Shown piece after piece: positions 2,637-58,482 of a stretch of DNA of 64,000 bases (position 1 is its first letter; each line of letters starts with the position of its first letter). The notes under the pieces were generated by a model. The model made no database searches. It was not told where the DNA came from and saw only the letters and a program-made list of their open reading frames with translations. The position numbers and the translations under genes were made by a program. This stretch comes from Naegleria gruberi. Lineage: Eukaryota. The stretch is from assembly GCA_000004985.1 (NCBI GenBank), contig GG738846.1; one strand, given 5' to 3'.

Positions 2637-3223
2637 TTATTGCTGACTGTCAAGAGCTTCAAGTTTTGCAATGTTGAGTGGAATCTTTTCTCCTGACAAC
2701 CACATGGCATAGATGGTGTGAGCTTGTACATGATTGGTGTCGTTTTCAAAGACTGGATGCAACAGAACAGGTCTTGGTCTTCCACCAAAGCCGGACAAGT
2801 TATTTCCACACTGCACAATACTCCAATTATAAACTTGAATGAAATACTTGTCAACAAGTTCCTTTCCAACAATATCACTTTCATCATTTGTAGAATTAAA
2901 TTATTATTATTGAAATTAATGTGATGAAACAAACATTTCAAAGAATGGGAGTGTATGAGGTCCGATTATTTGTTTCCATGCTGCAACAAATTATATTACA
3001 TCACCAACATTGTTAAACAAACAACATACCAACAATTCGGAGAGAAGGCCATCGAAGTTTTGCACTCTCCATCATTTCATCAATAATCTTTTCATCGACT
3101 GAATCTGACGGTAAATAGTAATAGTGGAAACTGATCAGTTAATAAATTGATTAATAGAAAATTCATAGAAAGAACTTACTGATAACCAATGATTGAATTT
3201 TCATCAAGTTTAACAATAGGCAT
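2637..3223 (-). CDS. Small four-exon gene encoding a 143-aa protein of unknown function (MPIVKLDENSIIGYHFHYYYLPSDSVDEK...CGNNLSGFGGRPRPVLLHPVFENDTNHVQAHTIYAMWLSGEKIPLNIAKLEALDSQQ).
   Basis: Exons are 3223-3180, 3130-3030, 2980-2935 and 2877-2637. Intron 1 (3131-3179) runs GTAAGT...AG. Intron 2 (2981-3029) runs GTATGT...CAG. Intron 3 (2878-2934) is a 57-nt GTTTGT...AAAG intron that removes four in-frame TAA codons. Phases are consistent: 44+101+46+238 nt gives 143 codons. No family recognised. Confidence 0.5.
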
Positions 3224-3406
3224 TCTCTCGGAGTTTCAAATAGATTTTTCTTTTGTGAATTGAAAATCATCTTGCCTTTCCATCAATTTAATTCATCCTC
3301 TTCTTATTTGTCTCTTCTTAAATTTAAATAAAATCTCTTAATAAAAACTTCAAGAGTCTCAAACGCTGCTGGGAATGATTCTAAAACCACAACAAGAAGA
3401 AAAAAA

Positions 3407-4285
3407 ATGAGTTCTACTAAGGTTCAAGTACCTCTCACTGATGAGAGCGAGGAAGATGATGTATTTGACTATGAGGTTGGTGATGACGATGACGAGTATA
3501 GTGATGAGGAGGATCATAAAGCAACCTCATCTTCCTTATTACATGCAACGAATAGTAATCCATTTGCCCCAATGCAAGCTTATAAACAATTACTCGGAAG
3601 TGATGTTGAAACAATACGAGCCTTTTTGGAAAACAAATCAAAGAACAAGTACTTTTATATAACGGTAAAGATGGGAGAAAAGAAGGGAAAATTGCGAGTA
3701 AGAATGGGCAGAGAAATTAACAGTTTTGATTTTGAAGATGCTATCGAGTTAACATTGGAGCAACAAACATATATCAGTTTTACTGGAATGGAAAATAAGA
3801 GAACAGGAGAGGTGTTTCCAATGATAGAACATCCAGTTATTCCTGGAACCACCTTACTGGAAAAAAAGTATGTCAGCAAGATGAAGGATGGAGAGGAATA
3901 CTTTTTATTAACAAGGGATATCAGAGATGATGCAGCTAATTTACTTACTCGTGAACAATTGGAGAGTATTAGAGAAAAATTCAACAAGATTGATGAGAAT
4001 AGAACTGGTTTTATATCTCACGATGAAATTAGGAAATATTTTGCAAAACATAGAGACCAAAAGATTTCCAGTTATATAGAATTTGCCAATGAAAAGATTA
4101 GAAAAGAACCTAAGAAGGAAGATTACCATCAACAACAACTTCAAAAGAGAATTAACATGGCAAAGAAACAATACCAAAAGAATGTAGACTATTTCCTCTC
4201 CATTGATATTAACGGAGATGGTTCAATCAGTTTTGAAGAATTTAGAAATAACGAAGTCAAATCTTACATTACTCAAAATAAATAA
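3407..4285 (+). CDS. EF-hand calcium-binding protein with an acidic (D/E-rich) N-terminus
   Basis: Intact 292-codon ORF with an ATG at 3407. The C-terminal half holds canonical EF-hand loops (DENRTGFISHDE, DINGDGSISFEE). The N-terminus is acidic (DESEEDDVFDYEVGDDDDEYSDEED). Confidence 0.75.
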   Translation: MSSTKVQVPLTDESEEDDVFDYEVGDDDDEYSDEEDHKATSSSLLHATNSNPFAPMQAYKQLLGSDVETIRAFLENKSKNKYFYITVKMGEKKGKLRVRMGREINSFDFEDAIELTLEQQTYISFTGMENKRTGEVFPMIEHPVIPGTTLLEKKYVSKMKDGEEYFLLTRDIRDDAANLLTREQLESIREKFNKIDENRTGFISHDEIRKYFAKHRDQKISSYIEFANEKIRKEPKKEDYHQQQLQKRINMAKKQYQKNVDYFLSIDINGDGSISFEEFRNNEVKSYITQNK

Positions 4286-4333
4286 TTATCTTTCAAAGAT
4301 GAAAACTGGAAATATATTTCAACAATTCACTGA

Positions 4334-7300
4334 ATGCTGTTTTTACAAAACATAATATTACGAAACAAACGAAAAAAAATGCTTTCACACCTGTCTCCAC
4401 ATGATGATGACTTAATTTCCGAGTCAAGTGATCATCATGATGGATCATCCAATAATAATAATAATAGGATGGAAAAGGTAGAGATGGCAATTATTTCCGA
4501 TTTGATTGAACATTTCAATCAGAGAATTTTCAATAGTACAATAACAGAGAAGGAACAATCGGAAGAACAATCCCTTCTTAAAAACGAATTGATGAAAATT
4601 GTACAATCGGAATCATTTCCTGCTCTTACAATGAAATTCTTGAGTTTAATTAAAATATTGAATAGGCCAAGTCTAAAAAGAATTGCTATTGAATTTATTC
4701 CCAAGATTTGTGGAAGCTCCGAGGAGGAAAATTCCAAAATTATTGAAGTATTGGATGGAATATTCAAGAGTGAGAATGCATTGACAAGGATTGTGATTTC
4801 AACCTTGTACAAGTTGGAAAATTTAAAAGATTCACAACAGGAGAAGGTTTTATTCATTGCACAAAATGCATTGGAATCGGTTGAGGAGGAGGATTTGGAT
4901 GATATTGTCAAGATCATGTTGAAGAATGTGACGAAAAAGAATAGTAGTGAAATTGTAAAGTACATTCGAGAAAAATTGGCCAATGATGACGTGGCCATTG
5001 TTAGGATTAGCTCTGAATTATTGGCAGACACATTTTCAACGACGCCATCTCTTGCTAATTATTTCCTAAAATCTTTAAAAGCAGAACAAGAGGAATTTTC
5101 TAAATTTGATGTTTTAATTTTAATGGTATTACTATCAACTAGGCACAGAGATAGAAATTCAACCTTTACAATATTTAAGAATGCATTTCAAAACAAACCA
5201 CAAAGAATGATTAATATTTCAACAATTTTGGATACCTTGAGTGCTGTTGGAAGTCTTTTGGATGATTGTAAATATGTAGACAGGATTTACAACTCGATAT
5301 ATATATTTATTATTTATTTATTATCAAATAGTGAGTTGTTTACAGATGAGAAGGGTGTACCATGGGTTTATAGTATTTTCATTCACTCGTTCAAGAGTTT
5401 CAAACCACTGAGAAGCAAATTTTTAACATCACTCTTGGCATTGTTTCAGTACAATGATTCCAAGTCGAATATTGCTGCGGAAATTTTGATAGGTTTATGT
5501 GATTTTGAGCAGAATGAAGAAGAGGATGAGGAATTTTCTGCCAGTCTGTGTAAACAAATTGCCTTGAATCATTTATCGATAATTAAGGATTCTCTGGCAC
5601 ATGCTGTTTCATATTCTAGTAGGTTTCACATTACAATGACTTTATATAATGATTATTACCAATAATTAATAGTAAGATGTCAACATTCACTTTGTTATTC
5701 TTTGGCCAAGTGCTCAATTCACGATCCAAAAACATTCGAGTACTTGATGATATTTATTAGAAAGCAAATTTTCAGTGGACAAGATAAGAAATCCCAACTA
5801 GGCCTTATTATTTCAATGCACCTAATTCATGAAACACACTACATGATCAGTTCAGACATTGACAGATTTGTTTTTTCACTATTTAACACGAAAAATTTTG
5901 ACGAAAATTCAATTCATATTTTAGATTTATTTATTTATAATTTTGATATTTTACTCAATATGGGGTTCGCTTCAAGAATGAAAGCAATCATTGTACAGTT
6001 ATTGAAAAATTTGGCAATTATTGACACGTTCCCAGAAATTTCACAACAAAGTAATTTTGAATTCAGAAAATTCTGCTCCATCAATACTCTTACACTTACC
6101 TCACTTCGAGCATTATCCATGCTAGTCAAGTGCTACATTCTCTGCCATGAAAATGATCAGGTAAGTTTGTTTGTTATGGATTCTTCTAAAAGAATTGAAT
6201 TAATAATAGTATCCTCTAAGCATGGCACTAATGCAAATTGGAGCAAAAGGAATTTCTAAAGAAGAATTAATGTGTATATATTCTATTGGTTATGTTTTAT
6301 ATGATCATGTTATTGAGAAGAATGTTTTGATAGAAAATCTTGACAAGGAAGACCAAGATTCTATGGTTGACTATACCGAGTATTTGCTACAGTTGAGAAT
6401 TGATATTGTAACATCTGAATCCATCAATGATACATTACACGCTTTGGATTTGGATGCATTTTTCAAATTATTCCCTCTCAGTGTGGAAATCATTTCACTC
6501 TTTATCAGAAAATACAAACACGAATATGACGAAGTATCCATGAAGAAGGAACGAGAGGCATTCAAATGCCTTTGGTCAGATTTTGATTTCATGTTGAAGC
6601 ATTTACTATTATTCAAATCGGATGAGGAAGAATCAGAGAGTCATAAATCAAATGCTAAGGGAAAGGGCGTATTTGCTCCAGATTTCAAAATTCTCTCACC
6701 CAAAAGAGTACTATTATTTGGTTCATTGTTGGAGGGAAGAAAGTCACCGAGCTCCATTTTCCAATTCATTTCTCTCACCAAGAAGGTCATTGGTGCTCTG
6801 GTGAAAAAGAGTTTCAAATATACTACTCTCTTGGCAGAGAAGAAATCAGAGATGAAAGTGAATCAAGACACTCAAAGTTTAGAAGGAAAAGACAAGGTTG
6901 ACCATTTGGTAATATGTCTATCGTATATTTATTGCTCACTTTCGAATGTGTTTTTTGTGACAAGAAACATTGATGAGGATGCATTCGAAGAGTTGATTTC
7001 TTCCTTTAAGAAGAATGACACTTCCATTCCAATTAATGTAATTTATCTTGTTCGATTGATTTTAAAACAAATTGAGGATGCTTCTTACTTTATTCATGCT
7101 TTCCAATTGAATCTTTTATTGGTATCCATTTGCCAAGGAAAGGAACTGCAAAAGATTATTGGCTATGTAGGTCTAGAATTATTGACACGAGTCTTTAGTT
7201 CTACATCTCAATCATCTACAATTGAAAAGATAGCCATGGAAGCTTATGTTTTCAAAGAATTACCATTCCATCACTTATTACACCACAGAGAAATTGCAAG

Positions 7301-15494: not shown

Positions 15495-15980
15495 TCAATA
15501 AAATACCAAATTATTTGACATTTCAATTATGTATTGATTACTAAATTTTACTCTACCTTTAAAATCATTAGAGCATTGTTTACAAGGAAACAAATCAGCA
15601 GTCATATAAACCCATTTCAATAATTTATCTTGATCCAAATCTTTATAATTCTGTACAAAAGCATGGAAAACATTCCAAACATGAGGTCCAATCATTTCTC
15701 TCGTTAGTGTTCCCTTATTTTCCTCTATATTACATTGTGTATTCAATGATGACGATTCCAATCTAGCAAAATACTCTTTCAAAAACAATTCCTCCTCTTC
15801 CTCCGATAAATAAACAGGAACAATCGATGACTTGTTATATTGTACATTAAATAAAACAAAAATAAATATCGTTGATAGAATTAGAATGATGAAAAATAAA
15901 TATTTTTGATGATGATGTTGATATTTGAATGGTGATCCCGATCCCGAAAGTACTGGCAGTGTTGTTGTTGAGGGGATCAT
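15495..15980 (-). CDS. Erv1/ALR-family FAD-linked sulfhydryl oxidase with an N-terminal membrane anchor (Erv2-like)
   Basis: 161-aa ORF. An N-terminal TM (YLFFIILILSTIFIFVLF) precedes the Erv/ALR core (...HVWNVFHAFVQNY...LFPCKQCSNDF...), including the CxxC redox pair. Confidence 0.65.
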   Translation of the reverse strand: MIPSTTTLPVLSGSGSPFKYQHHHQKYLFFIILILSTIFIFVLFNVQYNKSSIVPVYLSEEEEELFLKEYFARLESSSLNTQCNIEENKGTLTREMIGPHVWNVFHAFVQNYKDLDQDKLLKWVYMTADLFPCKQCSNDFKGRVKFSNQYIIEMSNNLVFY

Positions 15981-16167: not shown

Positions 16168-19100
16168 ATGTTGGCAAGAAAATTGTTTGGAAAATGCACA
16201 ACAAATAATCGCCATCTCGTATTAAAATCATCGCAATATGCCACAAAATTCTACTCCACAAGTGGTGCTGAAAAAAATTTAGTTGCAAATATTGAGAGTT
16301 GTATAAGAAATATTAATAATCATTATCGGAGTAAGAAAGAAAAAGAATTTAATAACGGTTTGCTGGATTTGAAGCAATTTTGCTCCCAATTAAATGATGC
16401 AACGGAAAGGAAACTAAATGAAAAATCGTGGAATTTTTTGATTCAACAATTTTGTAGAAACGAAGCCTTTAGTGATGAAGCTACATTTTGGTTCAGAAGA
16501 GTTATGAAAGAGAAGAAATTAGCCACTCCAAATTCATTCACTTTGACTGCGATATTAAAATCATTCTCTACTATTGGTGAATTAGATATGTGTGAAGAAA
16601 TTCTACAAGAATTAGAAAGTCAAGGACTATGCAACGTTTTCTCATACATATACTACACAAAAGCTTGTCTTCAAAATGGAAACACTGAGAAGGCTTTCAG
16701 TGTTATTGGACGTATGGAGAGTAAACAAATTGAACCAAGTTTTGGAATATACATTCCTCTTCTAAAGGAAGCAACTAACCAAAATAATGTGGAAGTTGGA
16801 TTGAAACTTTATGATATGATCAAAAAAAGTAACTTGGCAAGTTTTCAATTATCATCTTGTATCGCCACTTTTGCTTTGAAGGTGAACCGACCAGATATTG
16901 CAATCGAAGAATACGAAAAGATTAAACAGAGTGAATTGATGAATGTTATAACTTGGACATGTTTAATTCAAGCATACATTCAACAAAATGATACTGAGAA
17001 AGCAATAGATACGCTTATTGACATGAAAAAACATGGTATATACCCAGATTCTGCAACATTCACAATTTTATTGAGTGCATGTGCAAATTCTAATATGTAT
17101 GAAGAAGGAGTTAAAATTCATGAACTTGCAAAACAAACACTCAAAGATTTCACAATTGGATTATCAAACACAATTATTAATTTTTACACAAAATGTGGTT
17201 ATTCAAATATTGCCATAGAAGAATGTGAAAAATTGAAACAGAACGGATTGATGAATGTTGTAACTTGGACATGTTTAATTCAAGCATACATTCAACAAAA
17301 TGACATTGAGAAAGCAATAGATATGATTATTGACATGAAAAAGCATGGTATTTACCCAGATTCTGCAACATTCACAATTTTATTGAGTGCATGTGCAAAT
17401 TCTAATATGTATGAAGAAGGAGTTAAAATTCATGAACTTGCAAAACAAACACTCAAAGATTTTCAATTAGACTATCAACAGCAACTATTAATTTTTACAC
17501 TAAATGTGGTTATTCAAATATTGCCATAGAAGAATGTGAAAAATTGAAACAGAAAGGATTGATGAATGTTATAACTTGGACATGTTTAATTCAAGCATAC
17601 ATTCAACAAAATGATATTGAGAAAGCAATGAATACGATTATTGACATGAAAAACAGTGGTGTTATACCTAGATTCAACAACATTCACAATTTTATTGAGT
17701 GCATGTGCAAATTCTAATATGTATGAAGAAGGAGTTAAAATTCATGAACTTGCAAAACAAACACTCAAAGATTTCACAATTGAATTATCAAACACAATTA
17801 TTAATTTTTACACAAAATGTGGTTATTCAAATATTGCAATCGAAGAATACGAAAAGATTAAACAGAGTGAATTGATGAATGTTATAACTTGGACATGTTT
17901 AATTCAAGCATACATTCAACAAAATGATATTGAGAAAGCAATAGATACGCTTATTGACATGAAAAAACATGGTATATACCCAGATTCTGCAACATTCACA
18001 ATTTTATTGAGTGCATGTGCAAATTCTAATATGTATGAAGAAGGAGTTAAAATTCATGAACTTGCAAAACAAACACTCAAAGATTTCACAATTGAATTAT
18101 CCAACACAACTATTAATTTTTACACTAAATGTGGTTATTCAAATATTGCCATTGAAGAATGTGAAAAATTGAAACAGAACGGATTGATGAATGTTGTAAC
18201 TTGGACATGTTTAATTCAAGCATACATTCAACAAAATGACATTGAGAAAGCAATAGATATGATTATTGACATGAAAAAGCATGGTATATACCCAGATTCT
18301 GCAACATTCACAATTTTATTGAGTGCATGTGCAAAATCTAATATGTATGAAGAAGGAGTTAAAATTCATGAACTTGCAAAACAAACACTCAAAATATTTT
18401 CTTTAGAGCTATCGACAGCGACTATTAATTTTTATACTAAATGTGGTTATTCAAATATTGCCATTGAAGAATGTGAAAAATTGAAACAGAAAGGATTGAT
18501 GAATGTTATAACTTGGACATGTTTAATTCAAGCATACATTCAACAAAATGACGTTGAGAAAGCACTGAATACGATTACTAATATGAAAAACAGTGGTGTT
18601 GTACCTAACTCAACAACATTCACAATTTTATTGAGTGCATGTGCAAATTCTAATATGTATGAAGAAGGAGTTAAAATTCATGAACTTGCAAAACAAACTC
18701 TCAAAGTTTTCACAATTGAATTATCGCAACACAATTATTAATTTTTACACAAAATGTGGTTATCCAAATATTGCAATCGAAGAATATGAAAAGATTAAAC
18801 AGAGTGAATTGATGAATGTTATAACTTGGACATGTTTAATTCAAGCATACATTCAACAAAATGACATTGATAAAGCAATAGATACGCTTATTGACATGAA
18901 AAAACATGGTATATACCCAGATTCTGCAACATTCACAATTTTATTGAGTGAATGTGCAAATTCTAATATGTATGAAGAAGGAGTTAAAATTCATGAACTT
19001 GCAAAACAAACTCTCAAAGATTTCACAATTGAATTATCAAACACAATTATTAATTTTTACACTAAATGTGGTTATTCAAATATTGCCATAGAAGAATGTG

Positions 19101-21364
19101 AAAAATTGAAACAGAAAGGATTGATGAATGTTGTAACTTGGACATGTTTAATTCAAGCATACATTCAACAAAATGACATTGAGAAAGCAATAGATATGAT
19201 TATTGACATGAAAAAGAGTGGTGTTTACCTAGATTCAACAACATTCACAATTTTATTGAGTGCATGTGCAAATTCTAATATGTATGAAGAAGGAGTTAAA
19301 ATTCATGAACTTGCAAAACAAACTCTCAAAGATTTCACATTTGAACTATCAGACACAATTATTAATTTTTACACAAAATGTGGTTATTCAAATATCGCCA
19401 TTGAAGAATGTGAAAAACTGAAACATAACGGATTGATGAATGTTGTAACTTGGAACTGTTTAATTCAAGCATACATTCAACAAAATGACATTGAGAAAGC
19501 AATAGATATGATTATTGACATGAAAAAGCATGGTGTTGTACCTAATTCAACAACATTCACAATTTTATTGAGTGCATGCGCAAATTCTAATATGTATGAA
19601 GAAGGAGTTAAAATTCATGAACTTGCAAAACAAACACTCAAAGTATTTTCTTTAGAGCTATCGACAGCGACTATTAATTTTTATACTAAATGTGGTTATT
19701 CAAATATCGCTATTGAGGAATGTGAAAAACTGAAACAGAAAGGATTGATGAATGTTGTAACTTGGACATGTTTAATTCAAGCATACATTCAACAAAATGA
19801 TATTGAGAAAGCAATGAATACGATTATTAATATGAAAAAGAGTGGTGTTGTACCTAATTCAACAACATTCACAATTTTATTGAGTGCATGTGCAAATTCT
19901 AATATGTATGAAGAAGGAGTTAAAATTCATGAACTTGCAAAACAAACACTCAAAGATTTCACAATTGAATTATCAAACACAATTATTAATTTTTACACAA
20001 AATGTGGTTATTCAAATATTGCCATAGAAGAATGTGAAAAATTGAAACAGAACGGATTGATGAATGTTGTAACTTGGAACTGTTTAATTCAAGCATACAT
20101 TCAACAAAATGATATGTCAAACACCCACACTCCATCAGATGCAGAATATGGGTTGAATAAGGCATTTAGAGTCTATCAGGAAATGAAACAAAAAAACTTT
20201 GAACCTAACAGTTATACCTTCAGCATTTTAATGGCAGCGTGTGGAGAATATGTAGCTTCAAACATTGGAATTCAAATAATTGAGGATATAAAACAAAACA
20301 ACATGGATATCTATGAAGAGGTTATTTCTGGTATGGTTTATTTTTACTCTAGAGTTGGCCAAAAAGAAACTGCACAACAATTATTTGATAATCTTGTTAG
20401 AAAGAAGGATGAATCAAAAGAACCACTTTCTATCGTCACTTATACTAATATGCTTTCTTGTTATGCACAACACGGTAAAGGATATGAAGCTCAAAAACTG
20501 TTCGATGAAATTGTTGAAAAGAAAGTCAAAATTGATGAAATAACTCTAATAGTATTATTGAATGCATATTCACATTGTGGAATGGTTGAAGAAGCAATTC
20601 AATTATATAATGATATGAAACCAAAACATAATTTTAATCCAACCCTCTCTATTGATTGCGTTATGATTGATGTGTTTTCTCGTGCAGGAAGATTTGAGGA
20701 AGCAGAAAAACTAATAGGTAGTCGCAATGATATTGGTTTGTGGGGCGCATTGATGGGAGGATGTAGAAAATTCAATAAGATTGAACTTGGTGAAAAAGTA
20801 TTTAACAAAATGACAACAATTGATGAAAAACTAACCTCACCCTATATATTATTATCCCATATCTACACATATCATGGATTAAACGAAAAAGCTAACAAAT
20901 TGCAAAAATTGATGCGAAAAAGAGGTATAAAAAAATTGCCTGGTATTGTGTATCATGAAGAAAATGGCATTGTATTTAGATTTATTTCTGGATCTGACGA
21001 CCACAAAGAGGACTCTCAAATGTTTGCACAAATTGAGAGAATGAGAGATGAAATATTTCGTAAAATTATTAAGGCTGGATATAGACCAGATACAAGATGG
21101 GTTACCAGAACCGAATCATTGTCAGAGGAGGAAAAAGTTAATTTGCTTTATCGACATGCTGAAAAAACAGCCATTGCTCACGCCTTTGTTTTGAATCCAA
21201 ATAGAAAGAAAATAGTATTAACAAAAAATCTGAGAGTTTGCAATGATTGCCATTCGGCTACTACGTACATTTCAAAAGTGATGGATGTTGAAATTATTGT
21301 AAGAGATGCCAATAGGTATCATCATTTCAAAGATGGAAAATGTAGTTGTGGTGGTTATTGGTAA
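16168..21364 (+). CDS. PLS-class pentatricopeptide repeat protein with C-terminal E and DYW (cytidine deaminase) domains. It is a putative mitochondrial C-to-U RNA editing factor. The reading frame as assembled is broken by three 1-nt indels, so it is either a pseudogene or an assembly error.
   Basis: The ATG at 16168 starts a presequence-like N-terminus (MLARKLFGKCTTNNRHLVLKSSQYATKFYSTSG). The C-terminus is a DYW domain: HAEKTAIAHAFVLN...NLRVCNDCHSATTYISKVMDVEIIVRDANRYHHFKDGKCSCGGYW, with the HxE and CxxCH zinc-binding motifs. The body is about ten tandem 104-aa P-L-S triplets. Frame breaks sit near 17480 (-1), 17670 (+1) and 18725 (+1) and split the gene into track ORFs 16156-17529, 17656-18741 and 18635-21364. 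Confidence 0.8.
16892..20110 (+). repeat. Tandem array of about 10.3 copies of a 312-bp coding repeat, each one PPR P-L-S triplet, roughly 90% or more identical, arranged in a higher-order A-B-B' pattern
   Basis: The unit anchor 'caaatattgc' recurs at 17204, 17515, 17828, 18140, 18452, 18765, 19077, 19389, 19701 and 20013. The first unit starts near 16892 with a diverged left flank (gatattgcaatcgaag). Spacings are 312 nt, except 311 and 313 where the single-nucleotide indels lie. Units alternate between type A (IAIEEYEKIKQSELMNVITW...IDTLIDMKKHGIYPDSAT) and type B (IAIEECEKLKQ(N/K)GLMNVVTW...IDMIIDMKK...). Confidence 0.85.
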
Positions 21365-26758: not shown

Positions 26759-27613
26759 ATGCCACAACTTCACTCTGCTAACTTTCCTGTTACCGAAGAC
26801 GGACGTACTTACCATCTTGACTTGGCAAAAGGTATGATTGCCAATCGTATCATCACCGTTGGTGATATTGCTCGTGCTGAAAAATATGCAGGATTTTTGG
26901 ATAAGGATTCCATTACTCTTCGTCATCAATCTGCTAGAGGATTTTATACAATTACTGGTAAATATAAAGGAAAGGACGTTTCAATTGTTGGTATTGGTAT
27001 GGGTTTTCCAATGATGGATTTCTTGGTTAGAGAAGCATTATATTGTTTTGAAAGTGGATCAACAGTTGCCATGTTGAGACTTGGTACATGTGGTACTCCA
27101 GATATCAGTGTTCAAACTGGTGATTATGTTATTACTGAAGACTCTATTTCCGTTATTCGTAATCCAGATTATTTTACTTTGAAAGAAGAAAACCAAAGTA
27201 CTGAAGGTGTTAAACCATACTTGCTCTCTTTGCCAGTTAAATCTAACAAGGACTTCCAAGATGCTTTGGATAATGCATTCACACAATTAGATCTTCCACA
27301 TCATCGTGGTAGAAATGCAATGGGTGATTCATTCTACAGTTCACAAGGTAGACACGACGATAAATTTGATGATGAAAATGATCATATTGAAGGTAAATTA
27401 CAAGAACTTGGAGTCAAGTCAATTGAAATGGAATCATTCCAATTGTTGGATTTGGCTAGATGTACAAAAACTGTCAAAGTTAAAGCCTGTGCTGCAACAC
27501 TTGTATTGGCTCAACGTGTTACAAATGTATTTATTGATGTAAATTTGAAAAATACTAGAGAAGAAATGATGGGCAGAGCTGGCCTTGAAGCTATTATTAA
27601 TGTCGAATTGTAA
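26759..27613 (+). CDS. PNP/UDP family-1 nucleoside phosphorylase (uridine phosphorylase-like)
   Basis: 284-aa ORF. It has the family motifs ...ITVGDIARAE..., ...VSIVGIGMGFPMMDF..., ...AMLRLGTCG... and ...IEMESFQLLDLA..., collinear with uridine phosphorylases. Confidence 0.7.
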   Translation: MPQLHSANFPVTEDGRTYHLDLAKGMIANRIITVGDIARAEKYAGFLDKDSITLRHQSARGFYTITGKYKGKDVSIVGIGMGFPMMDFLVREALYCFESGSTVAMLRLGTCGTPDISVQTGDYVITEDSISVIRNPDYFTLKEENQSTEGVKPYLLSLPVKSNKDFQDALDNAFTQLDLPHHRGRNAMGDSFYSSQGRHDDKFDDENDHIEGKLQELGVKSIEMESFQLLDLARCTKTVKVKACAATLVLAQRVTNVFIDVNLKNTREEMMGRAGLEAIINVEL

Positions 27614-27776: not shown

Positions 27777-28460
27777 TCATCGGAATGCATACTTTTTCTT
27801 CTTATTTTCTTTTTCTCGGTTTCTTCTATAGGCCTCTCGTAAATGTCTTGGTTCTATTGGATCAGAGGGATCATCTCCCCATTCCTTCTGTATCGTCTTG
27901 GATAATTCTACTAATTCGCCAACATAGACCTTGGCAATACCTGCAATTGTAATTTCCACATTCTTATTGGTTGACGGAGTTGATGTTGAATTATTGATTA
28001 ATCTCTTCATTACTGGTTTAAATGTACTTCTAGTGAAATTTTCATATCGATCATATTGTGGATGGTCAGGTCGTGATAATTTACTAATAATTTTCTCCCT
28101 CTTTTCTGCCTCTCTCTTTTCCCTAATTTTACGTTGTTTCTTCTTGATTTTTACACTCGAGGAGTGAGGATTCATATGGTACATGTCGTCATTTTGATCA
28201 ATATCTTGTATTGGTTTTATAATTGCTCCAGCAATTTCGTCATCATCATCGGTATCACTTGCTGTATCACTTCCCGATTCGGGTTCATAATCATTCTCAT
28301 CATCTTCATATTGTCCATTTCCACTATATCCGATATTTGTATAATCATCATCCAATTGATCGTTATTTATAGATGAAGAACCACCTTGATAATACAAAGA
28401 AGAAGAAGATGCAGTTGTTCCCAAATCATGAGCAGAAAACGATGATGGAAGGGAAAACAT
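27777..28460 (-). CDS. TAF11: TFIID subunit TAF11 (histone-fold)
   Basis: The C-terminal histone-fold block ...NVEITIAGIAKVYVGELVELSKTIQKEWGDDPSDPIEPRHLREAYRR... matches the TAF11 signature I(A/S)GISKVFVGEVVEEA...W...PLQPKHLREAVRR. The N-terminus is acidic low-complexity. Confidence 0.7.
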   Translation of the reverse strand: MFSLPSSFSAHDLGTTASSSSLYYQGGSSSINNDQLDDDYTNIGYSGNGQYEDDENDYEPESGSDTASDTDDDDEIAGAIIKPIQDIDQNDDMYHMNPHSSSVKIKKKQRKIREKREAEKREKIISKLSRPDHPQYDRYENFTRSTFKPVMKRLINNSTSTPSTNKNVEITIAGIAKVYVGELVELSKTIQKEWGDDPSDPIEPRHLREAYRRNREKENKKKKYAFR

Positions 28461-28898
28461 TTTGTATTTTTTTTCTATTTTTAATTCATTTTAAAATTTT
28501 TGGATTATTTTGAATAATATAAAATATTTAATAATTTTGAATAACTAATTCAGATGGGTTTGTAATATTGATAATGAAGGTCCAAAGGTTGTGATGCGTG
28601 CAAATTGATAACAAATTGTTTTACCAAGCAAATATATCCATCCCTCCAAAAAAAACTCAAAATAAGGCGCTAAAAAGTTCATGCACATCAATAGCACCCA
28701 AGGTACATCAGAAAAAAATTACCTCAACTCGAGCTTACATCATCAAACAATATCCTTTTAAAACAAAAATTATCGTAATCATATGATATTAACCATTATT
28801 CAATAATCTATCTATTCTTTTCCTCCAATTCAAATAATACAACAAACCTTTTCCCGCCACCTCAATCACACACAACCGTTTTCTGCTTAATTTAAAAA

Positions 28899-29663
28899 AT
28901 GTCTCATCGCCAGCTTACATTGGATTTGGATAGTTTGGTCGAGGAGATTGAGGATTTACTCACCGATAGACCAAGTTCCCAAGGAGCAATACACAAATCA
29001 CCCAACCAAAAAAATAAGGATTTGGCTGCATCATCTCGATCGTCATCAGTGCCAAGGAGTGGATCAGCAAGAAATAAGAATAATGTTTTTGCAAATACTA
29101 CTGCATTTGCTAATCATAACAATAGCACACCTTCTCCGGCCAGTAAGAAGAGTGCAATGTTTAAAAAACAATTCTCTCATAATGATTTGGAACTTGATGA
29201 TTTCATGAATGAGTTGATAGAGGACTCACCCACTTCTCCCATAATCAAGAGGAAAAATTCAATACCCAAAAACGCATCAGTTGGAGCATTTACAACCTCT
29301 TCTCCTGTTAGCAGTCTAACATCACCAAGAGTGAGTAAAAAGTGTTCAACCACCTATCTCTCCAATAGACATGACTCTTTCGGCATTAATACATTTCTTA
29401 CACCAAAGAGATGTAGTGATCTTCGATGCATGAAATGCGACTTTAAGGTTATTAATTTTGATGGAAAAAAGTGGAAGGAAGATGTCAATTATCTCTTTTT
29501 CAGAAACAATTATCCAGAAACTGTAAAGAAAGGTTTTGAGGAAAAAGAATTCCCTGATCACACTTCCTATTGTTGCCAATGTAGTTGGATCACTGTTTCT
29601 GATAGAACAAGCGCTAAAAATCTAACCTCTTTGAACTGGTATTGTGGTGGACATAAGAATTAG
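28899..29663 (+). CDS. C8orf37/CFAP418-family ciliary protein
   Basis: The N-terminus MSHRQLTLDLDSLVEEIEDLL resembles human C8orf37 MAEDLDELLDEVES. The C-terminal cysteine-rich domain ...DLRCMKCDFKVINFDGKKWKEDVNYLFFRNNYPE...YCCQCSWITVSD...LNWYCGGHKN matches the recalled human ...LRCIACDFLVVSYDD..DYLFFRNNMPE...YACQCSWRT...LRWVCGKH. Confidence 0.6.
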   Translation: MSHRQLTLDLDSLVEEIEDLLTDRPSSQGAIHKSPNQKNKDLAASSRSSSVPRSGSARNKNNVFANTTAFANHNNSTPSPASKKSAMFKKQFSHNDLELDDFMNELIEDSPTSPIIKRKNSIPKNASVGAFTTSSPVSSLTSPRVSKKCSTTYLSNRHDSFGINTFLTPKRCSDLRCMKCDFKVINFDGKKWKEDVNYLFFRNNYPETVKKGFEEKEFPDHTSYCCQCSWITVSDRTSAKNLTSLNWYCGGHKN

Positions 29664-30058
29664 GAAGTGAATCTTCAAGAGGAATGATTTATTCCTCAAA
29701 TGGTGTTGCAGCAATAATAGATGGATGTCTTTCTAGGCACTCCTGAAAAAAAAAGAAATCAAATAGAGCTTTTGTTTCAATACACATTTTGTAAACGAGA
29801 ATATGAATATTATTAAATAAATTTATGAATCTTTCACAGGTTTATTTTTAACTGTTTAATATATATACAACAAGCAAATTTGGAAAATTTAATGTCTAAT
29901 TTGGATCATTCAAAACATTGATCGTTATGAACATTTTGTTAACCGTTTCAAAAAACACAGAACAACATCATCTCTCTTGTACCTAATTCCTTCAAGGAGT
30001 AACACCATTCACAGAAGAATCAACTTAGCTAGGCAATCAACATTGTAAGGGAATAGAG

Positions 30059-56433: not shown

Positions 56434-58482
56434 ATGAAAAAACTCAAATCATCAGCCAAAGAATTATCATCATCGGAGGATAAAAGTGATGAATGGAAAA
56501 AACTATTCAAAGAATTGGATGATTTATTACTGGGAGGAATAACAGATCAAATTAATAATTTATGTTCATATTTTCGGAATGAAATTGTTAAACATTTATC
56601 AATTAATGATGATAACAATGATTTGATTCGTGATTTTGGAGATGAATCAACATTTGATATTTCTACAATGAGTGTAAATCAGATAAGAGAAAAATTTGGA
56701 GATAAATCGAGTATTGATTTACCAGAACAAATGCAACAATTACTTGTTGAATACACCTTGTTGCCAGTTTGTAGAATTCCAGTGGATCCTAAACCTTCAT
56801 CCAAGTTTAGTCTTTCTTTCATTAATGAAGTTCTTTTCAAGCAATTTCAATTGAATACTGTATTTTCGGAAAATGTGAATCATTTGTTTTCTACAATTAT
56901 AATACCTTTATTAACAGATGGGGATTTTACAAATGAGGAATATCAGAAAAAACTAGGGAAAAAGATTGACGAATTGAAGAGTGAAAAAAAGAAACAATTT
57001 ATAGAGTTTTTAAATTCTTACTTTGCTTCATTGGTATTCTTTTGTCAATTTGAGTTATTGAAACAGTTGAGCGAGTGGCTGTTTCTATTTTCTAATAGTA
57101 TCAAATTGTGGATCATTAAGAGTTTTTTTACCAAGTTTTTGACAACTTCACAGAGTAAATGTCAACCTTTACGAGAACTAGCCCAGAAAGTTCTCTCCAA
57201 ACATCAAAGTTTAATCATTAAGGAGGAAGGCCACTATGTAAAACACAATGTAAATAATCACTTCTTGACTGATCAAATCACAGAGGAGGATGCTGAATCC
57301 CTGGTGAAACCTCCAACAACCAAGGCTCAAGTGGCCTCTCAACTCGTACTCAAATTATTGGATATGAGTCTCAATGAATACTCTCAGGAGGAAAGAAAGA
57401 AATCAGAATGCCTTAGGCACTGCATTGAAATTTTAAAGTATGGAAATCTTCACTCCATCATGGATGATTCTTCAACAAGTGATGAGAAGAGCAAATCCAT
57501 TCCTATCTCAAAATCACTGAGAGGATACTCAATTCTAATATCAAGTGAGTATGGACAGGAAATGATGGAAAAGCTATGGCCAATGCTTTATGGATTCATT
57601 GAGAATTACACTTCAGAACTGGAAAAACCAACAAGAATTTCACACCAAATAGGTCTGCAACTTTTATCACTCTTTGATTTGGTATATCCATCTATTGAGA
57701 AGAGTCAAGTAGCCAACTACTTTTACCTCAACGACTGTTTTTTACCACTCACTATGAAATTACTAAAAGTACTCAATTCTAGATTTGAAACAGATTCAAG
57801 CCAATCTGTAACTATGGAAATCAAGTTAGCCAATAGAGCTTTACGAGTATTTGTCAAGCATTCGACCAAAACGAGTAATAATCTGGATGCTGTTCAATTC
57901 TTTCAAGTTATTCAAGAACCAAGTCATTGCAGCAAGTTGAAAATTAAGAAATTCATTACGGATATTTCAGATGGACTTGTATTCGAATCCCTGCTTCATC
58001 CTTCTAAATACTTGCTACGAGATAGTATGTCCTCACAGAAAACAGAAGAGTTGTACAAGTCTTTGGAGAAAACATTGTTGGTTTGGTCCAATTTCTTCCT
58101 CTATCTTTATAATGCATGTTGTCTGGAGAGAACACCAGAGAGGAAAATATTGGACCCATTCGAAGATGAAGATCAACAAGAGCAACAGAATGAAGTAAGT
58201 GAGGCCACTCGAAAATATCGTCATGTGGACAAGCTCAATATTATTTTCACTCAACTTGTGGAATGTGCTTGCATGTTCGATTACAATCACTTTGTTCACA
58301 AATCACTTTCTGATTCACCAATCGGTAAATTTGCTCACCTTGCAAAGAAGGCCGAAAGTTTGAATGAACTAGTGAGAGCCATTCTCGTTGTCATTTTACA
58401 GAAACCATTCATTGTGGATGGTATTTTGAGTAGAGAGAATTTAAATGTCATTTCAGAAAGACTTGGAATTACCTCAGAGTAA
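56434..58482 (+). CDS. Hypothetical 682-aa helical protein
   Basis: Intact ORF with an ATG at 56434. No recognisable motif. Confidence 0.45.
   Translation: MKKLKSSAKELSSSEDKSDEWKKLFKELDDLLLGGITDQINNLCSYFRNEIVKHLSINDDNNDLIRDFGDESTFDISTMSVNQIREKFGDKSSIDLPEQMQQLLVEYTLLPVCRIPVDPKPSSKFSLSFINEVLFKQFQLNTVFSENVNHLFSTIIIPLLTDGDFTNEEYQKKLGKKIDELKSEKKKQFIEFLNSYFASLVFFCQFELLKQLSEWLFLFSNSIKLWIIKSFFTKFLTTSQSKCQPLRELAQKVLSKHQSLIIKEEGHYVKHNVNNHFLTDQITEEDAESLVKPPTTKAQVASQLVLKLLDMSLNEYSQEERKKSECLRHCIEILKYGNLHSIMDDSSTSDEKSKSIPISKSLRGYSILISSEYGQEMMEKLWPMLYGFIENYTSELEKPTRISHQIGLQLLSLFDLVYPSIEKSQVANYFYLNDCFLPLTMKLLKVLNSRFETDSSQSVTMEIKLANRALRVFVKHSTKTSNNLDAVQFFQVIQEPSHCSKLKIKKFITDISDGLVFESLLHPSKYLLRDSMSSQKTEELYKSLEKTLLVWSNFFLYLYNACCLERTPERKILDPFEDEDQQEQQNEVSEATRKYRHVDKLNIIFTQLVECACMFDYNHFVHKSLSDSPIGKFAHLAKKAESLNELVRAILVVILQKPFIVDGILSRENLNVISERLGITSE

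What the first reader, a model, noticed from the sequence alone, without database searches (positions are those of the whole stretch)
17440..18760. Three single-nucleotide frame breaks inside the PPR repeat array, spaced with the repeat period
Alignment against sibling units shows a 1-nt deletion near 17480 ('gattttcaattagactatcaacagcaactatt' versus 'gatttcacaattgaattatcaaacacaattatt'). It shows a 1-nt insertion near 17670 ('gttatacctagattcaacaac' versus 'gttgtacctaactcaacaac'). It shows a 1-nt insertion near 18725 ('ttatcgcaacacaatt' versus 'ttatcaaacacaatt'). The first two compensate each other but leave an in-frame TAG at 17527; the third leaves a net +1. As assembled, the mitochondrial presequence and first repeats are disconnected from the intact E/DYW-bearing ORF that starts at 18635. 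Either these are sequencing or assembly errors in a near-identical array, or the locus is a decaying paralogue, or translation starts internally. Each outcome changes how the gene should be annotated.
Basis: seen in the sequence. Interest (0 to 1): 0.55.

Follow-up and report, generated by a model that had tools for sequence, protein, structure and literature searches.

The report
Frame breaks in Naegleria PPR-DYW gene
An unannotated Naegleria gruberi gene for a giant mitochondrial RNA-editing-type (PPR-DYW) protein is cut into four reading-frame pieces by three one-base length changes, which look more like consensus errors from merging slightly different repeat copies than like ordinary gene decay, though only raw reads can settle it.

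Summary
The window is Naegleria gruberi NEG-M nuclear DNA, from the only assembly of the species, a Sanger draft.

All three one-base frame breaks exist:
- a missing base at 17471/17472;
- an extra base at 17671;
- an extra base at 18726/18727.

Repairing just these three restores one 1,731-codon ORF (16168-21364) with no stop. It has a presequence-like N-terminus, ten near-identical 312-bp P-L-S triplet units, an E motif and a complete DYW deaminase. No public protein record covers the locus.

The breaks are not randomly placed.
- All three lie in the two short hypervariable patches that distinguish unit subtypes (P about 0.001-0.009).
- Each lies at a subtype-discriminating column: one such column is lost, and two carry both alternative bases side by side.
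- The patch around the first break is a fine A-type/B-type mosaic (P = 0.007).

This argues against random read errors and against ordinary decay. It points to mixing of repeat subtypes.

| Explanation | My estimate |
|---|---|
| Mixing in silico: merged haplotypes or mis-piled reads | about 0.5 |
| Real, recent lesions in the genome | about 0.38 |

Introns and programmed frameshifting find no support. Raw reads or cDNA are needed. Interest is modest.

The parts
16168..21364 (+). Conceptual full-length gene: 1,731 codons plus stop, after adding one base at 17471/72 and removing 17671 and 18727
   Evidence: 5,196 nt, a multiple of 3, with a single terminal stop; all four frame pieces hit Pfam PPR families.
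16168..16269 (+). Presequence-like N-terminus (MLARKLFGKCTTNNRHLVLKSSQYATKFYSTSGA)
   Evidence: 34 aa with 6 K/R, 0 D/E and 8 S/T. The composition fits a mitochondrial presequence, but no targeting predictor was run.
16894..20112 (+). Tandem array of ten 312-bp units (U0-U9) plus a partial eleventh. Each unit is one P-L-S triplet (35+35+34 aa). Higher-order 936-bp structure: U0~U3~U6, U1~U4~U8, U2~U5~U9, with U7 a hybrid.
17471..17472 (+). Lesion 1: one base missing in unit U1 (GA^CTA, siblings GAGCTA). Shifts frame 1 to frame 0.
   Evidence: The lost column is an A/G subtype-discriminating column, and the surrounding 30 nt are an A-type/B-type mosaic.
17527..17529 (+). TAG that ends the first ORF (16168-17529, 453 aa from the first ATG) when the sequence is read as assembled
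17472..17670 (+). 66-codon stretch whose true PPR frame is frame 0, lying between lesions 1 and 2
   Evidence: protein 2: PPR_2 E = 1.2e-10.
17671..17671 (+). Lesion 2: extra base in unit U2 (CCTA[G]ATTC), inside the codon for the last residue of the P motif (N/D specificity position). The alternative placement is an extra A at 17664.
   Evidence: The string CCTAGATTCAACAAC recurs in frame in U7 at 19228.
17672..18726 (+). 351-codon stretch in frame 1 (rest of U2, U3, U4, most of U5)
   Evidence: protein 3.
18726..18727 (+). Lesion 3: extra base in unit U5 (TATC[GC]AAC), one codon before position 5 of the S motif. Leaves a net +1.
18659..21364 (+). Longest ATG-initiated ORF as assembled (901 aa). 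Its first 23 codons (MKKELKFMNLQNKLSKFSQLNYR) are out-of-frame repeat sequence, and the PPR frame resumes at 18728.
20771..20947 (+). E motif
   Evidence: PF20431, E = 8.3e-14, residues 682-740 of the piece starting at 18728.
21077..21361 (+). DYW cytidine-deaminase domain, complete (HAE ... CNDCH ... CSCGGYW)
   Evidence: PF14432, E = 1.1e-37, profile positions 1-93 of 93. Sequence.

Best explanation
**What the locus is**
The locus is one gene for a 1,731-residue PLS-class PPR protein with E and DYW deaminase domains. This is the protein type that directs C-to-U RNA editing in mitochondria. Its RNA-binding tract was enlarged by tandem amplification of a 312-bp P-L-S triplet.

**What the breaks most likely are**
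The three one-base frame breaks are most likely errors of the draft Sanger consensus, not features of the genome. I infer the following chain.
- N. gruberi is a heterozygous diploid and the array units are 91-98% alike. Reads carrying different subtype versions of the two short hypervariable patches were therefore stacked at U1, U2 and U5.
- In those patches an aligner opens compensating gap pairs.
- A column-by-column consensus then kept both alternative bases (lesions 2 and 3) or neither (lesion 1). At lesion 1 it also produced a fine A-type/B-type mosaic.

**Shown versus inferred**
- Shown: the anatomy of the gene, the exact lesions, and their non-random placement at subtype-discriminating columns.
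- Inferred: that the mixing happened in the assembler rather than in the cell.
For: - **Intact apart from three bases.** Three single-base corrections restore a 5,196-nt ORF with no other stop or indel. It has a presequence-like start and a full E motif plus DYW domain.
- **Constraint in the corrected frame.** Differences between homologous units, including the broken ones, show pN/pS of 0.16-0.6. The two 936-bp copies U0-2 and U3-5 differ by 14 synonymous and 17 non-synonymous changes, a ratio of about 0.29.
- **Placement in the variable patches.** All three lesions fall in the two hypervariable patches, defined from the seven intact units only. P(all three) is 0.0006-0.009 within the array and about 3e-4 over the CDS.
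- **Placement at discriminating columns.** At lesion 1 an A/G column is lost. At lesion 2 the type-2 A and the type-1/U7 G are both present. At lesion 3 the B-type G and the U3 C are both present.
- **Fine mosaic at lesion 1.** Six of U1's seven differences from U4 at discriminating positions equal the A-type base (P = 0.007), with 7 source switches in 30 nt. The in-frame hybrid U7 is instead one clean tract.
- **Aligners gap exactly there.** A standard aligner places compensating gap pairs in these patches when different subtypes are aligned.
- **No sign of decay in the broken units.** They carry no excess of private substitutions (1-5 per unit throughout).
- **Assembly context.** The assembly is an unfinished Sanger draft, and Naegleria is described as mainly a heterozygous diploid, with heterozygosity reported for N. 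gruberi (PMC9928731).
Against: - No read-level data could be examined, so the in-silico step is an inference.
- The 64-kb window has no gaps, and the array is assembled into ten distinct, coherently diverged units. This argues against gross mis-piling.
- The two most similar 936-bp copies still differ by 3.3%.
- A bias towards keeping a base over a gap explains the two insertions but not the deletion at lesion 1.
- Private substitutions in the disconnected units U0-U5 are 12 non-synonymous to 2 synonymous. This fits neutrality and is unlikely under omega = 0.29 (P = 0.017). U6-U9 show 6:4. The direct contrast is not significant (Fisher P = 0.19).
- Natural indels are frequent in N. gruberi non-coding DNA. 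Another strain differs from the window by 17 gaps and 36 mismatches over 3.5 kb. Three real indels would therefore need few accompanying substitutions.
- Related PLS-DYW loci in environmental short-read contigs also carry frame breaks.
Confidence: 0.5

Rival explanations
1. The three length changes are real and recent, so a formerly single giant gene has just been broken.
- As assembled, translation from the first AUG stops at TAG 17527. This yields a 453-aa PPR fragment without a deaminase.
- The upstream six units then decay.
- The E/DYW part is either dead as well (a young pseudogene) or survives as a 901-aa product from an internal start at 18659.
- The lesions would have arisen in vivo, through patchy gene conversion or heteroduplex repair between unit subtypes.
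For: - The lesions are in non-homopolymer context, inside a gap-free and well-resolved array.
- Private substitutions upstream of lesion 3 look unconstrained (12N:2S, P = 0.017 against omega 0.29), whereas those downstream are 6N:4S.
- All three lesions lie upstream of the intact DYW-bearing ORF.
- The natural ratio of indels to substitutions is high between N. gruberi strains. About 5.7% of substitutions would create a stop. The absence of further lesions is therefore compatible with very recent inactivation.
- Frame-broken relatives exist in independent assemblies: L001, L002, and L003 = L004.
- N. gruberi is reported to have 11 DYW genes but only two known editing sites (PMC4202320), so redundancy is plausible.
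Against: - Random mutation does not explain why all three lesions lie in the hypervariable patches and at discriminating columns.
- No known repair mechanism keeps both mismatched bases.
- In-register gene conversion between subtypes gives in-frame hybrids, as U7 shows.
- The 7-switch mosaic at lesion 1 is unlike a conversion tract.
- The upstream/downstream contrast in N:S is not significant (P = 0.19).
- An internal start lacks the canonical presequence and has no unique promoter, because the sequence upstream of it is repeat.
Confidence: 0.38
2. The breaks are ordinary random base-calling errors in a thinly covered part of the draft, unrelated to repeat subtypes.
For: - The assembly is a Sanger draft.
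- The ORF is otherwise perfect.
Against: - Random errors would be spread uniformly. P that all three hit the patches is 0.0006-0.009.
- The extra bases equal known alternative alleles.
- No excess of private substitutions surrounds lesions 2 and 3.
- Three such errors within 1.3 kb is far above a normal consensus error rate (my own knowledge of Sanger drafts).
Confidence: 0.05
3. The breaks are bypassed biologically, through short introns, programmed ribosomal frameshifting, or insertion/deletion editing of the mRNA. The full protein would then be made from the sequence as assembled.
For: The only support is that the corrected frame is perfectly conserved.
Against: - No GTAAGT, GTGAGT or GTATGT occurs anywhere in 16168-21364.
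- The 52 GT..AG intervals that could bridge lesion 3 are what chance gives, and each would delete part of a PPR unit.
- No X XXY YYZ heptamer lies near lesion 1.
- The three sites have three unrelated sequence contexts and need shifts in both directions.
- To my knowledge, no nuclear indel editing is known in Naegleria.
Confidence: 0.02

Closest known systems
DYW-type PLS-class PPR proteins: plant organellar C-to-U RNA editing factors and their Naegleria gruberi homologues (Knoop and Rudinger 2010, as cited in PMC4202320)
   Same: - It has P-L-S triplet motifs, an E motif, and a complete DYW deaminase with HxE and CxxCH.
- The best database relatives of the C-terminal 419 aa are two N. gruberi predicted proteins at 50% identity, followed by plant DYW proteins at 33-40%.
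   Different: - The tract is ten near-identical copies of one triplet, arranged in a 936-bp higher-order repeat. This gives about 40 motifs and 1,731 aa, far longer and more uniform than usual editing factors.
- The reading frame is broken as assembled.
- No protein record exists for it.
Consensus (frameshift) errors at tandem repeats and heterozygous sites in draft shotgun assemblies
   Same: - The length changes are confined to a near-identical array.
- They sit at columns where copies differ, with both alternative bases retained or dropped.
- The ORF is otherwise perfect.
   Different: This is not demonstrated, because no reads were available. The array is otherwise resolved into distinct units without gaps.
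Young unitary pseudogenes in birth-and-death PPR families (for example restorer-of-fertility-like PPR clusters in plants, from my own knowledge)
   Same: - There are disabling one-base indels.
- Variation is concentrated at RNA-recognition positions.
- There is evidence of recombination between copies.
- Frame-broken relatives occur in environmental contigs.
   Different: - Here the recombining copies are intragenic units, not separate genes.
- There are no nonsense substitutions or larger lesions.
- Lesion placement is too specific for random decay.

Membership tests
DYW-type PLS-class PPR protein | Tandem PPR motifs arranged as P, L and S variants | tested here: met
   Pfam PPR, PPR_2 and PPR_3 hit all four frame pieces. 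Each 104-aa unit parses as 35+35+34 aa (my parse).
DYW-type PLS-class PPR protein | E motif following the PPR tract | tested here: met
   PF20431, E = 8.3e-14, window 20771-20947.
DYW-type PLS-class PPR protein | C-terminal DYW deaminase domain with the zinc-binding HxE and CxxC signatures | tested here: met
   PF14432, E = 1.1e-37, profile positions 1-93 of 93. HAE, CNDCH and a terminal GYW are present.
DYW-type PLS-class PPR protein | One uninterrupted ORF joining the targeting peptide, PPR tract and DYW domain | tested here: not met
   As assembled there are four frame pieces. The feature is met only after three one-base corrections.
DYW-type PLS-class PPR protein | Organelle targeting and C-to-U editing activity | not testable with these tools
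   Only the N-terminal composition (K/R-rich, no acidic residues) speaks for targeting. No activity data exist.
Assembly or consensus artefact | Raw reads disagree with the consensus at the sites | not testable with these tools
   No trace or read data were available. No independent copy was found in the protein database or in JGI metagenomes.
Assembly or consensus artefact | Errors confined to repeat positions where copies or haplotypes differ | tested here: met
Pseudogene | Disabling lesions in the deposited sequence | tested here: met
   Three frameshifts and a premature TAG at 17527.
Pseudogene | Relaxed selective constraint | tested here: inconclusive
   Older differences show pN/pS of about 0.16-0.6. 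Private changes upstream are 12N:2S against 6N:4S downstream, Fisher P = 0.19.
Programmed ribosomal frameshift site | Slippery heptamer or a conserved shift-prone motif at the break | tested here: not met
   No X XXY YYZ motif occurs in 17401-17530. The three sites have unrelated contexts.
Spliceosomal intron bridging the break | GT..AG with a recognisable 5' splice consensus that restores a sensible protein | tested here: not met
   No GTAAGT, GTGAGT or GTATGT occurs in the locus. The consensus for Naegleria introns was assumed, not verified.

The most novel reading that the evidence does not exclude
The breaks are real and the locus works as a two-part system. The untranslated upstream P-L-S units would act as a silent cassette store. 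Gene conversion from that store would rewrite the RNA-recognition residues (position 5 and the last position) of the expressed 901-aa DYW gene downstream, re-targeting an editing factor much as silent cassettes drive antigenic variation.

What hints at it:
- Four of the six code positions vary between units.
- Hybrid units exist (U7, U1).

Nothing tests it.
Probability: 0.03. Interest if true: 0.7.

Novelty: new member of a known kind. Interest (0 to 1): 0.3.

Why it matters
- **Gene count against editing sites.** N. gruberi is the reference non-plant organism for plant-type RNA editing. It is reported to have 11 DYW genes and only two known editing sites. Whether this locus counts as a working gene, a truncated one or a pseudogene changes that ledger, and it is absent from the public protein set.
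- **A practical warning.** Frameshifts inside near-identical intragenic repeats of a heterozygous draft genome should not be read as pseudogenes, or silently repaired, without reads.
- **If the gene is intact.** A natural protein built from ten almost identical P-L-S triplets that differ mainly at RNA-recognition positions would be a useful case for how PPR tracts grow and re-target.

Tried and rejected
**Searches for an independent copy of the locus (all empty)**
- Exact look-ups of window ORFs, including ORF-A and three ATG variants of the DYW ORF, were not in the collection.
- A homology search with the C-terminal 419 aa gave a best hit of 50% identity.
- A homology search with four intact units gave a best hit of 38% identity.
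- A protein-pattern scan and a 32-mer scan of JGI metagenome contigs both returned nothing.
- N. gruberi scaffolds themselves are not retrievable through the look-up of encoding contigs, so paralogous loci could not be inspected.

**Literature**
- Knoop and Rudinger 2010, Rudinger 2011, Schallenberg-Rudinger 2013 and Knoop 2011 are not held.
- The supplements of PMC4202320 list no accessions.

**Internal control**
- There is no other tandem repeat in the window.
- No clear frameshift showed up in the other window ORFs I scanned against Pfam.

**Explanations rejected**
- Introns and programmed frameshifting.
- Random decay and random read error.
- Simple mis-piling between the two most similar 936-bp copies as the whole explanation. 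Neither U4 nor U5 carries the bases inserted in U2 and U5.

**Not used**
- I left the third database search (N-terminal 242 aa) unrun. Searches already show that no record reaches the array.
Full report
**Source of the window**

The window is nuclear DNA of Naegleria gruberi NEG-M.
- Four window ORFs are exact matches to GenBank predicted proteins of that strain on a 1,001,995-bp scaffold: EFC49917 at 56434-58479, EFC49902 at 3407-4282, EFC49908 at 26759-27610 and EFC49909 at 28899-29660.
- GC content is about 33% throughout, and the window has no N gaps.
- NEG-M is the only N. gruberi assembly. It is a Sanger draft (PMC9928731).
- That paper describes Naegleria as mainly a heterozygous diploid and cites heterozygosity found in N. 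gruberi.

Tandem Repeats Finder reports a single array, 16895-20112, with period 312 and 10.3 copies. It is the only tandem repeat in the window. Anchoring on a conserved 20-mer gives ten units of 312 nt, with three exceptions:

| Unit | Coordinates | Length |
|---|---|---|
| U1 | 17206-17516 | 311 |
| U2 | 17517-17829 | 313 |
| U5 | 18454-18766 | 313 |

The lesions are as follows:

| Lesion | Position | Change |
|---|---|---|
| 1 | between 17471 and 17472 | base missing: GA^CTA, where siblings U4/U8 have GAGCTA |
| 2 | 17671 | extra G in CCTA[G]ATTC relative to U5/U9; scored against U7, equally an extra A at 17664 |
| 3 | 18726/18727 | extra base in TATC[GC]AAC |

- Invariant flanking columns fix each lesion to within a few bases.
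- None of the three sites is a homopolymer.

- The lesions are not periodically spaced. Lesions 1 and 3 lie at nearly the same unit offset (265 and 272), four units apart. Lesion 2 is at offset 154.
- 18635 is a GTG. The first ATG of that ORF is 18659, and the true PPR frame resumes at 18728.

**What the locus is**

- Adding one base at lesion 1 and deleting one base each at lesions 2 and 3 gives a 5,196-nt ORF, 16168-21364. It encodes 1,731 residues with no internal stop.
- All four frame pieces hit the Pfam PPR families. The last piece also carries an E motif (E = 8e-14) and a full-length DYW deaminase (E = 1e-37, profile 1-93 of 93) with HAE, CNDCH and a terminal GYW.
- The first 34 residues have six K/R, no acidic residues and eight S/T. 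This fits a mitochondrial presequence, although no predictor was run.
- Each 104-residue unit is one P-L-S triplet.
- The array has a 936-bp higher order: U0~U3~U6, U1~U4~U8 and U2~U5~U9, with 6-23 mismatches per 312 nt within each group. U7 is a hybrid.
- No protein in the 5.8-billion-sequence collection is more than 50% identical to the C-terminal 419 residues or more than 38% identical to the array.
- The locus is therefore absent from the public N. gruberi protein set, and no orthologue or intact paralogue with this array is available.
- By homology the product would be a mitochondrial C-to-U editing-type factor. Two editing sites and 11 DYW genes are reported for N. gruberi (PMC4202320).

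**Age of the lesions**

- In the corrected frame, pN/pS between homologous units is 0.16-0.6, and this includes the broken units.
- The two 936-bp copies U0-2 and U3-5 differ by 14 synonymous and 17 non-synonymous changes, a ratio of about 0.29.
- The whole array was therefore translated in this frame while about 8% synonymous divergence accumulated. The breaks are either very recent or not real.
- Broken units carry no excess of private substitutions (1-5 per unit everywhere).

**Placement of the lesions**

- I defined variable columns from the seven intact units only.
- On that definition, all three lesions lie in the two short hypervariable patches, unit columns 137-159 and 252-280.
- The probability that three random positions all reach that local density is 0.0006-0.009 within the array, and about 3e-4 over the whole CDS.
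- These patches encode the last residue of the P motif (N/D) and the last residue of the L motif plus position 5 of the S motif. These are the RNA-recognition positions (my parse).

Each lesion also sits exactly at a subtype-discriminating column:
- At lesion 1 the A/G column is missing.
- At lesion 2 the resident type-2 A and the type-1/U7 G stand side by side.
- At lesion 3 the B-type G and the U3-type C stand side by side.

The 30 nt around lesion 1 form a fine mosaic.
- Of the seven discriminating positions where U1 differs from its sibling U4, six carry the A-type base (P = 0.007).
- There are seven source switches in those 30 nt.
- The in-frame hybrid U7, by contrast, is one clean type-1 tract inside type-2 flanks.

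A standard pairwise aligner places compensating gap pairs in exactly these patches whenever different subtypes are aligned.

**Interpretation**

Random base-calling errors and random mutational decay both predict uniform placement, so both are disfavoured. The lesions come from mixing of unit subtypes. The open question is where that mixing happened.

I favour the assembler, at about 0.5.
- Keeping both alleles, or neither, and switching source column by column is how a voting consensus behaves. This happens when two sequence versions (two haplotypes, or reads from sister units) are stacked and the aligner staggers them.
- In-register gene conversion yields in-frame hybrids such as U7.
- I know of no repair pathway that retains both mismatched bases.

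The in-vivo alternative stays close, at about 0.38.
- The array is gap-free and resolved into coherent units.
- A bias towards keeping a base over a gap does not explain the deletion at lesion 1.
- Private substitutions in the disconnected units U0-U5 are 12N:2S. This fits neutrality and is unlikely under omega 0.29 (P = 0.017). U6-U9 show 6N:4S, but the direct contrast is not significant (P = 0.19).
- A second N. gruberi strain in an ENA metagenome differs from this window by 17 gaps and 36 mismatches over 3.5 kb, mostly non-coding. Natural indels are therefore common.
- Only 5.7% of substitutions would create a stop, so a very young pseudogene could look like this.
- If the lesions are real, the first AUG yields a 453-residue PPR fragment. 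The DYW part could be made only from an internal start at 18659, whose 23-residue out-of-frame leader is basic but is not the canonical presequence.

**Other readings**

- No GTAAGT, GTGAGT or GTATGT occurs in the locus. The 52 GT..AG intervals able to bridge lesion 3 are what chance would give.
- No slippery heptamer lies near lesion 1.
- Recoding would require three different mechanisms at three unrelated contexts.

**Related loci**

- The nearest environmental relatives belong to the same PLS-DYW family. The organism is unknown.
- L001, L002 and L004 are MEGAHIT contigs of ENA sample ERZ27315067. L003 is a JGI metagenome contig.
- These relatives also show one-base or short frame breaks that separate upstream PPR units from the DYW part.
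- L001 and L002 have a base missing in an A-run.
- L003 and L004 are 100% identical over 1,631 nt across two records and carry a break in the N-terminal region.
- This shows that broken members of the family exist. Those breaks are in different contexts from the three here.

**Verdict**

It most likely reflects a consensus problem in an otherwise intact, unannotated giant PPR-DYW gene, with a recently broken gene as the close rival. Neither reading is unusual biology. Reads, clones or cDNA would settle it quickly.

Noticed in passing
window 16894-20112: The array is a higher-order repeat of three-unit blocks (936 bp). Amino-acid variation between units touches four of the six PPR code positions: P-motif position 5 (T/N) and last (D/N), L-motif last (T/S/Q), and S-motif position 5 (N/T/D). 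If read as a PPR code it predicts a periodic purine-x-pyrimidine/A target. Natural P-L-S triplets this uniform resemble designer PPR proteins.
   Followed up: partly
window 19079-19390 (unit U7; string at 19228-19242): U7 is an in-frame hybrid, a clean type-1 tract inside type-2 flanks, reading VYLDS instead of VVPNS or IYPDS. It shares the 15-mer CCTAGATTCAACAAC with the frame-broken U2.
   Followed up: yes
L001 1731-3820; L002 3-1774; L003 7089-8703 = L004 5385-6999: Environmental relatives of the same PLS-DYW family also have frame breaks between the upstream PPR part and the DYW part. In L001 and L002 one base is missing in an A-run. L001 also has a damaged HxE motif (ILYPEKMAM). L003 and L004 are identical in two records and lack any DYW domain. 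The source organism is unknown; an Ints3 gene and a reverse-transcriptase element lie nearby.
   Followed up: partly
L005 (window 3070-4941) and L006 (window 28069-29731): An ENA metagenome assembly (ERZ929261, run ERR1078381, PRJEB11402) holds contigs 95.6-99.5% identical to this window, meaning a second N. gruberi strain. Coding parts are almost identical (291 of 292 aa), while the promoter region at 3165-3394 is full of small indels. Its reads could test the PPR locus.
   Followed up: partly
window 15495-15980 (-): The 161-aa ORF next to the PPR gene matches only the first half of the Erv1/Alr sulfhydryl oxidase domain (profile positions 2-51 of 93). It is either split by an intron or truncated.
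   Followed up: no
window 3400-26800: GenBank protein numbers run from EFC49902 (3.4 kb) to EFC49908 (26.8 kb), leaving five models for at least nine long ORFs besides the PPR locus. Most long ORFs of the window are not exact matches to any database protein. Annotation here is sparse, or the models contain introns.
   Followed up: no
P0001 and P0002 (N. gruberi paralogues, not in the window): The two closest annotated N. gruberi DYW proteins start in the middle of a PPR motif (MSFYTKCG..., MKEYCSIQP...). Their gene models are probably truncated at the 5' end. Their loci might hide similar upstream units or breaks, but the genomic DNA could not be retrieved.
   Followed up: no
window 17075-19884, once per unit: Every unit contains the same 47-58-codon out-of-frame ORF (MHVQILICMKKELKFMNLQNK...). 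This is why the DYW ORF appears to start at 18635. It is a by-product of the repeat, not a gene.
   Followed up: yes
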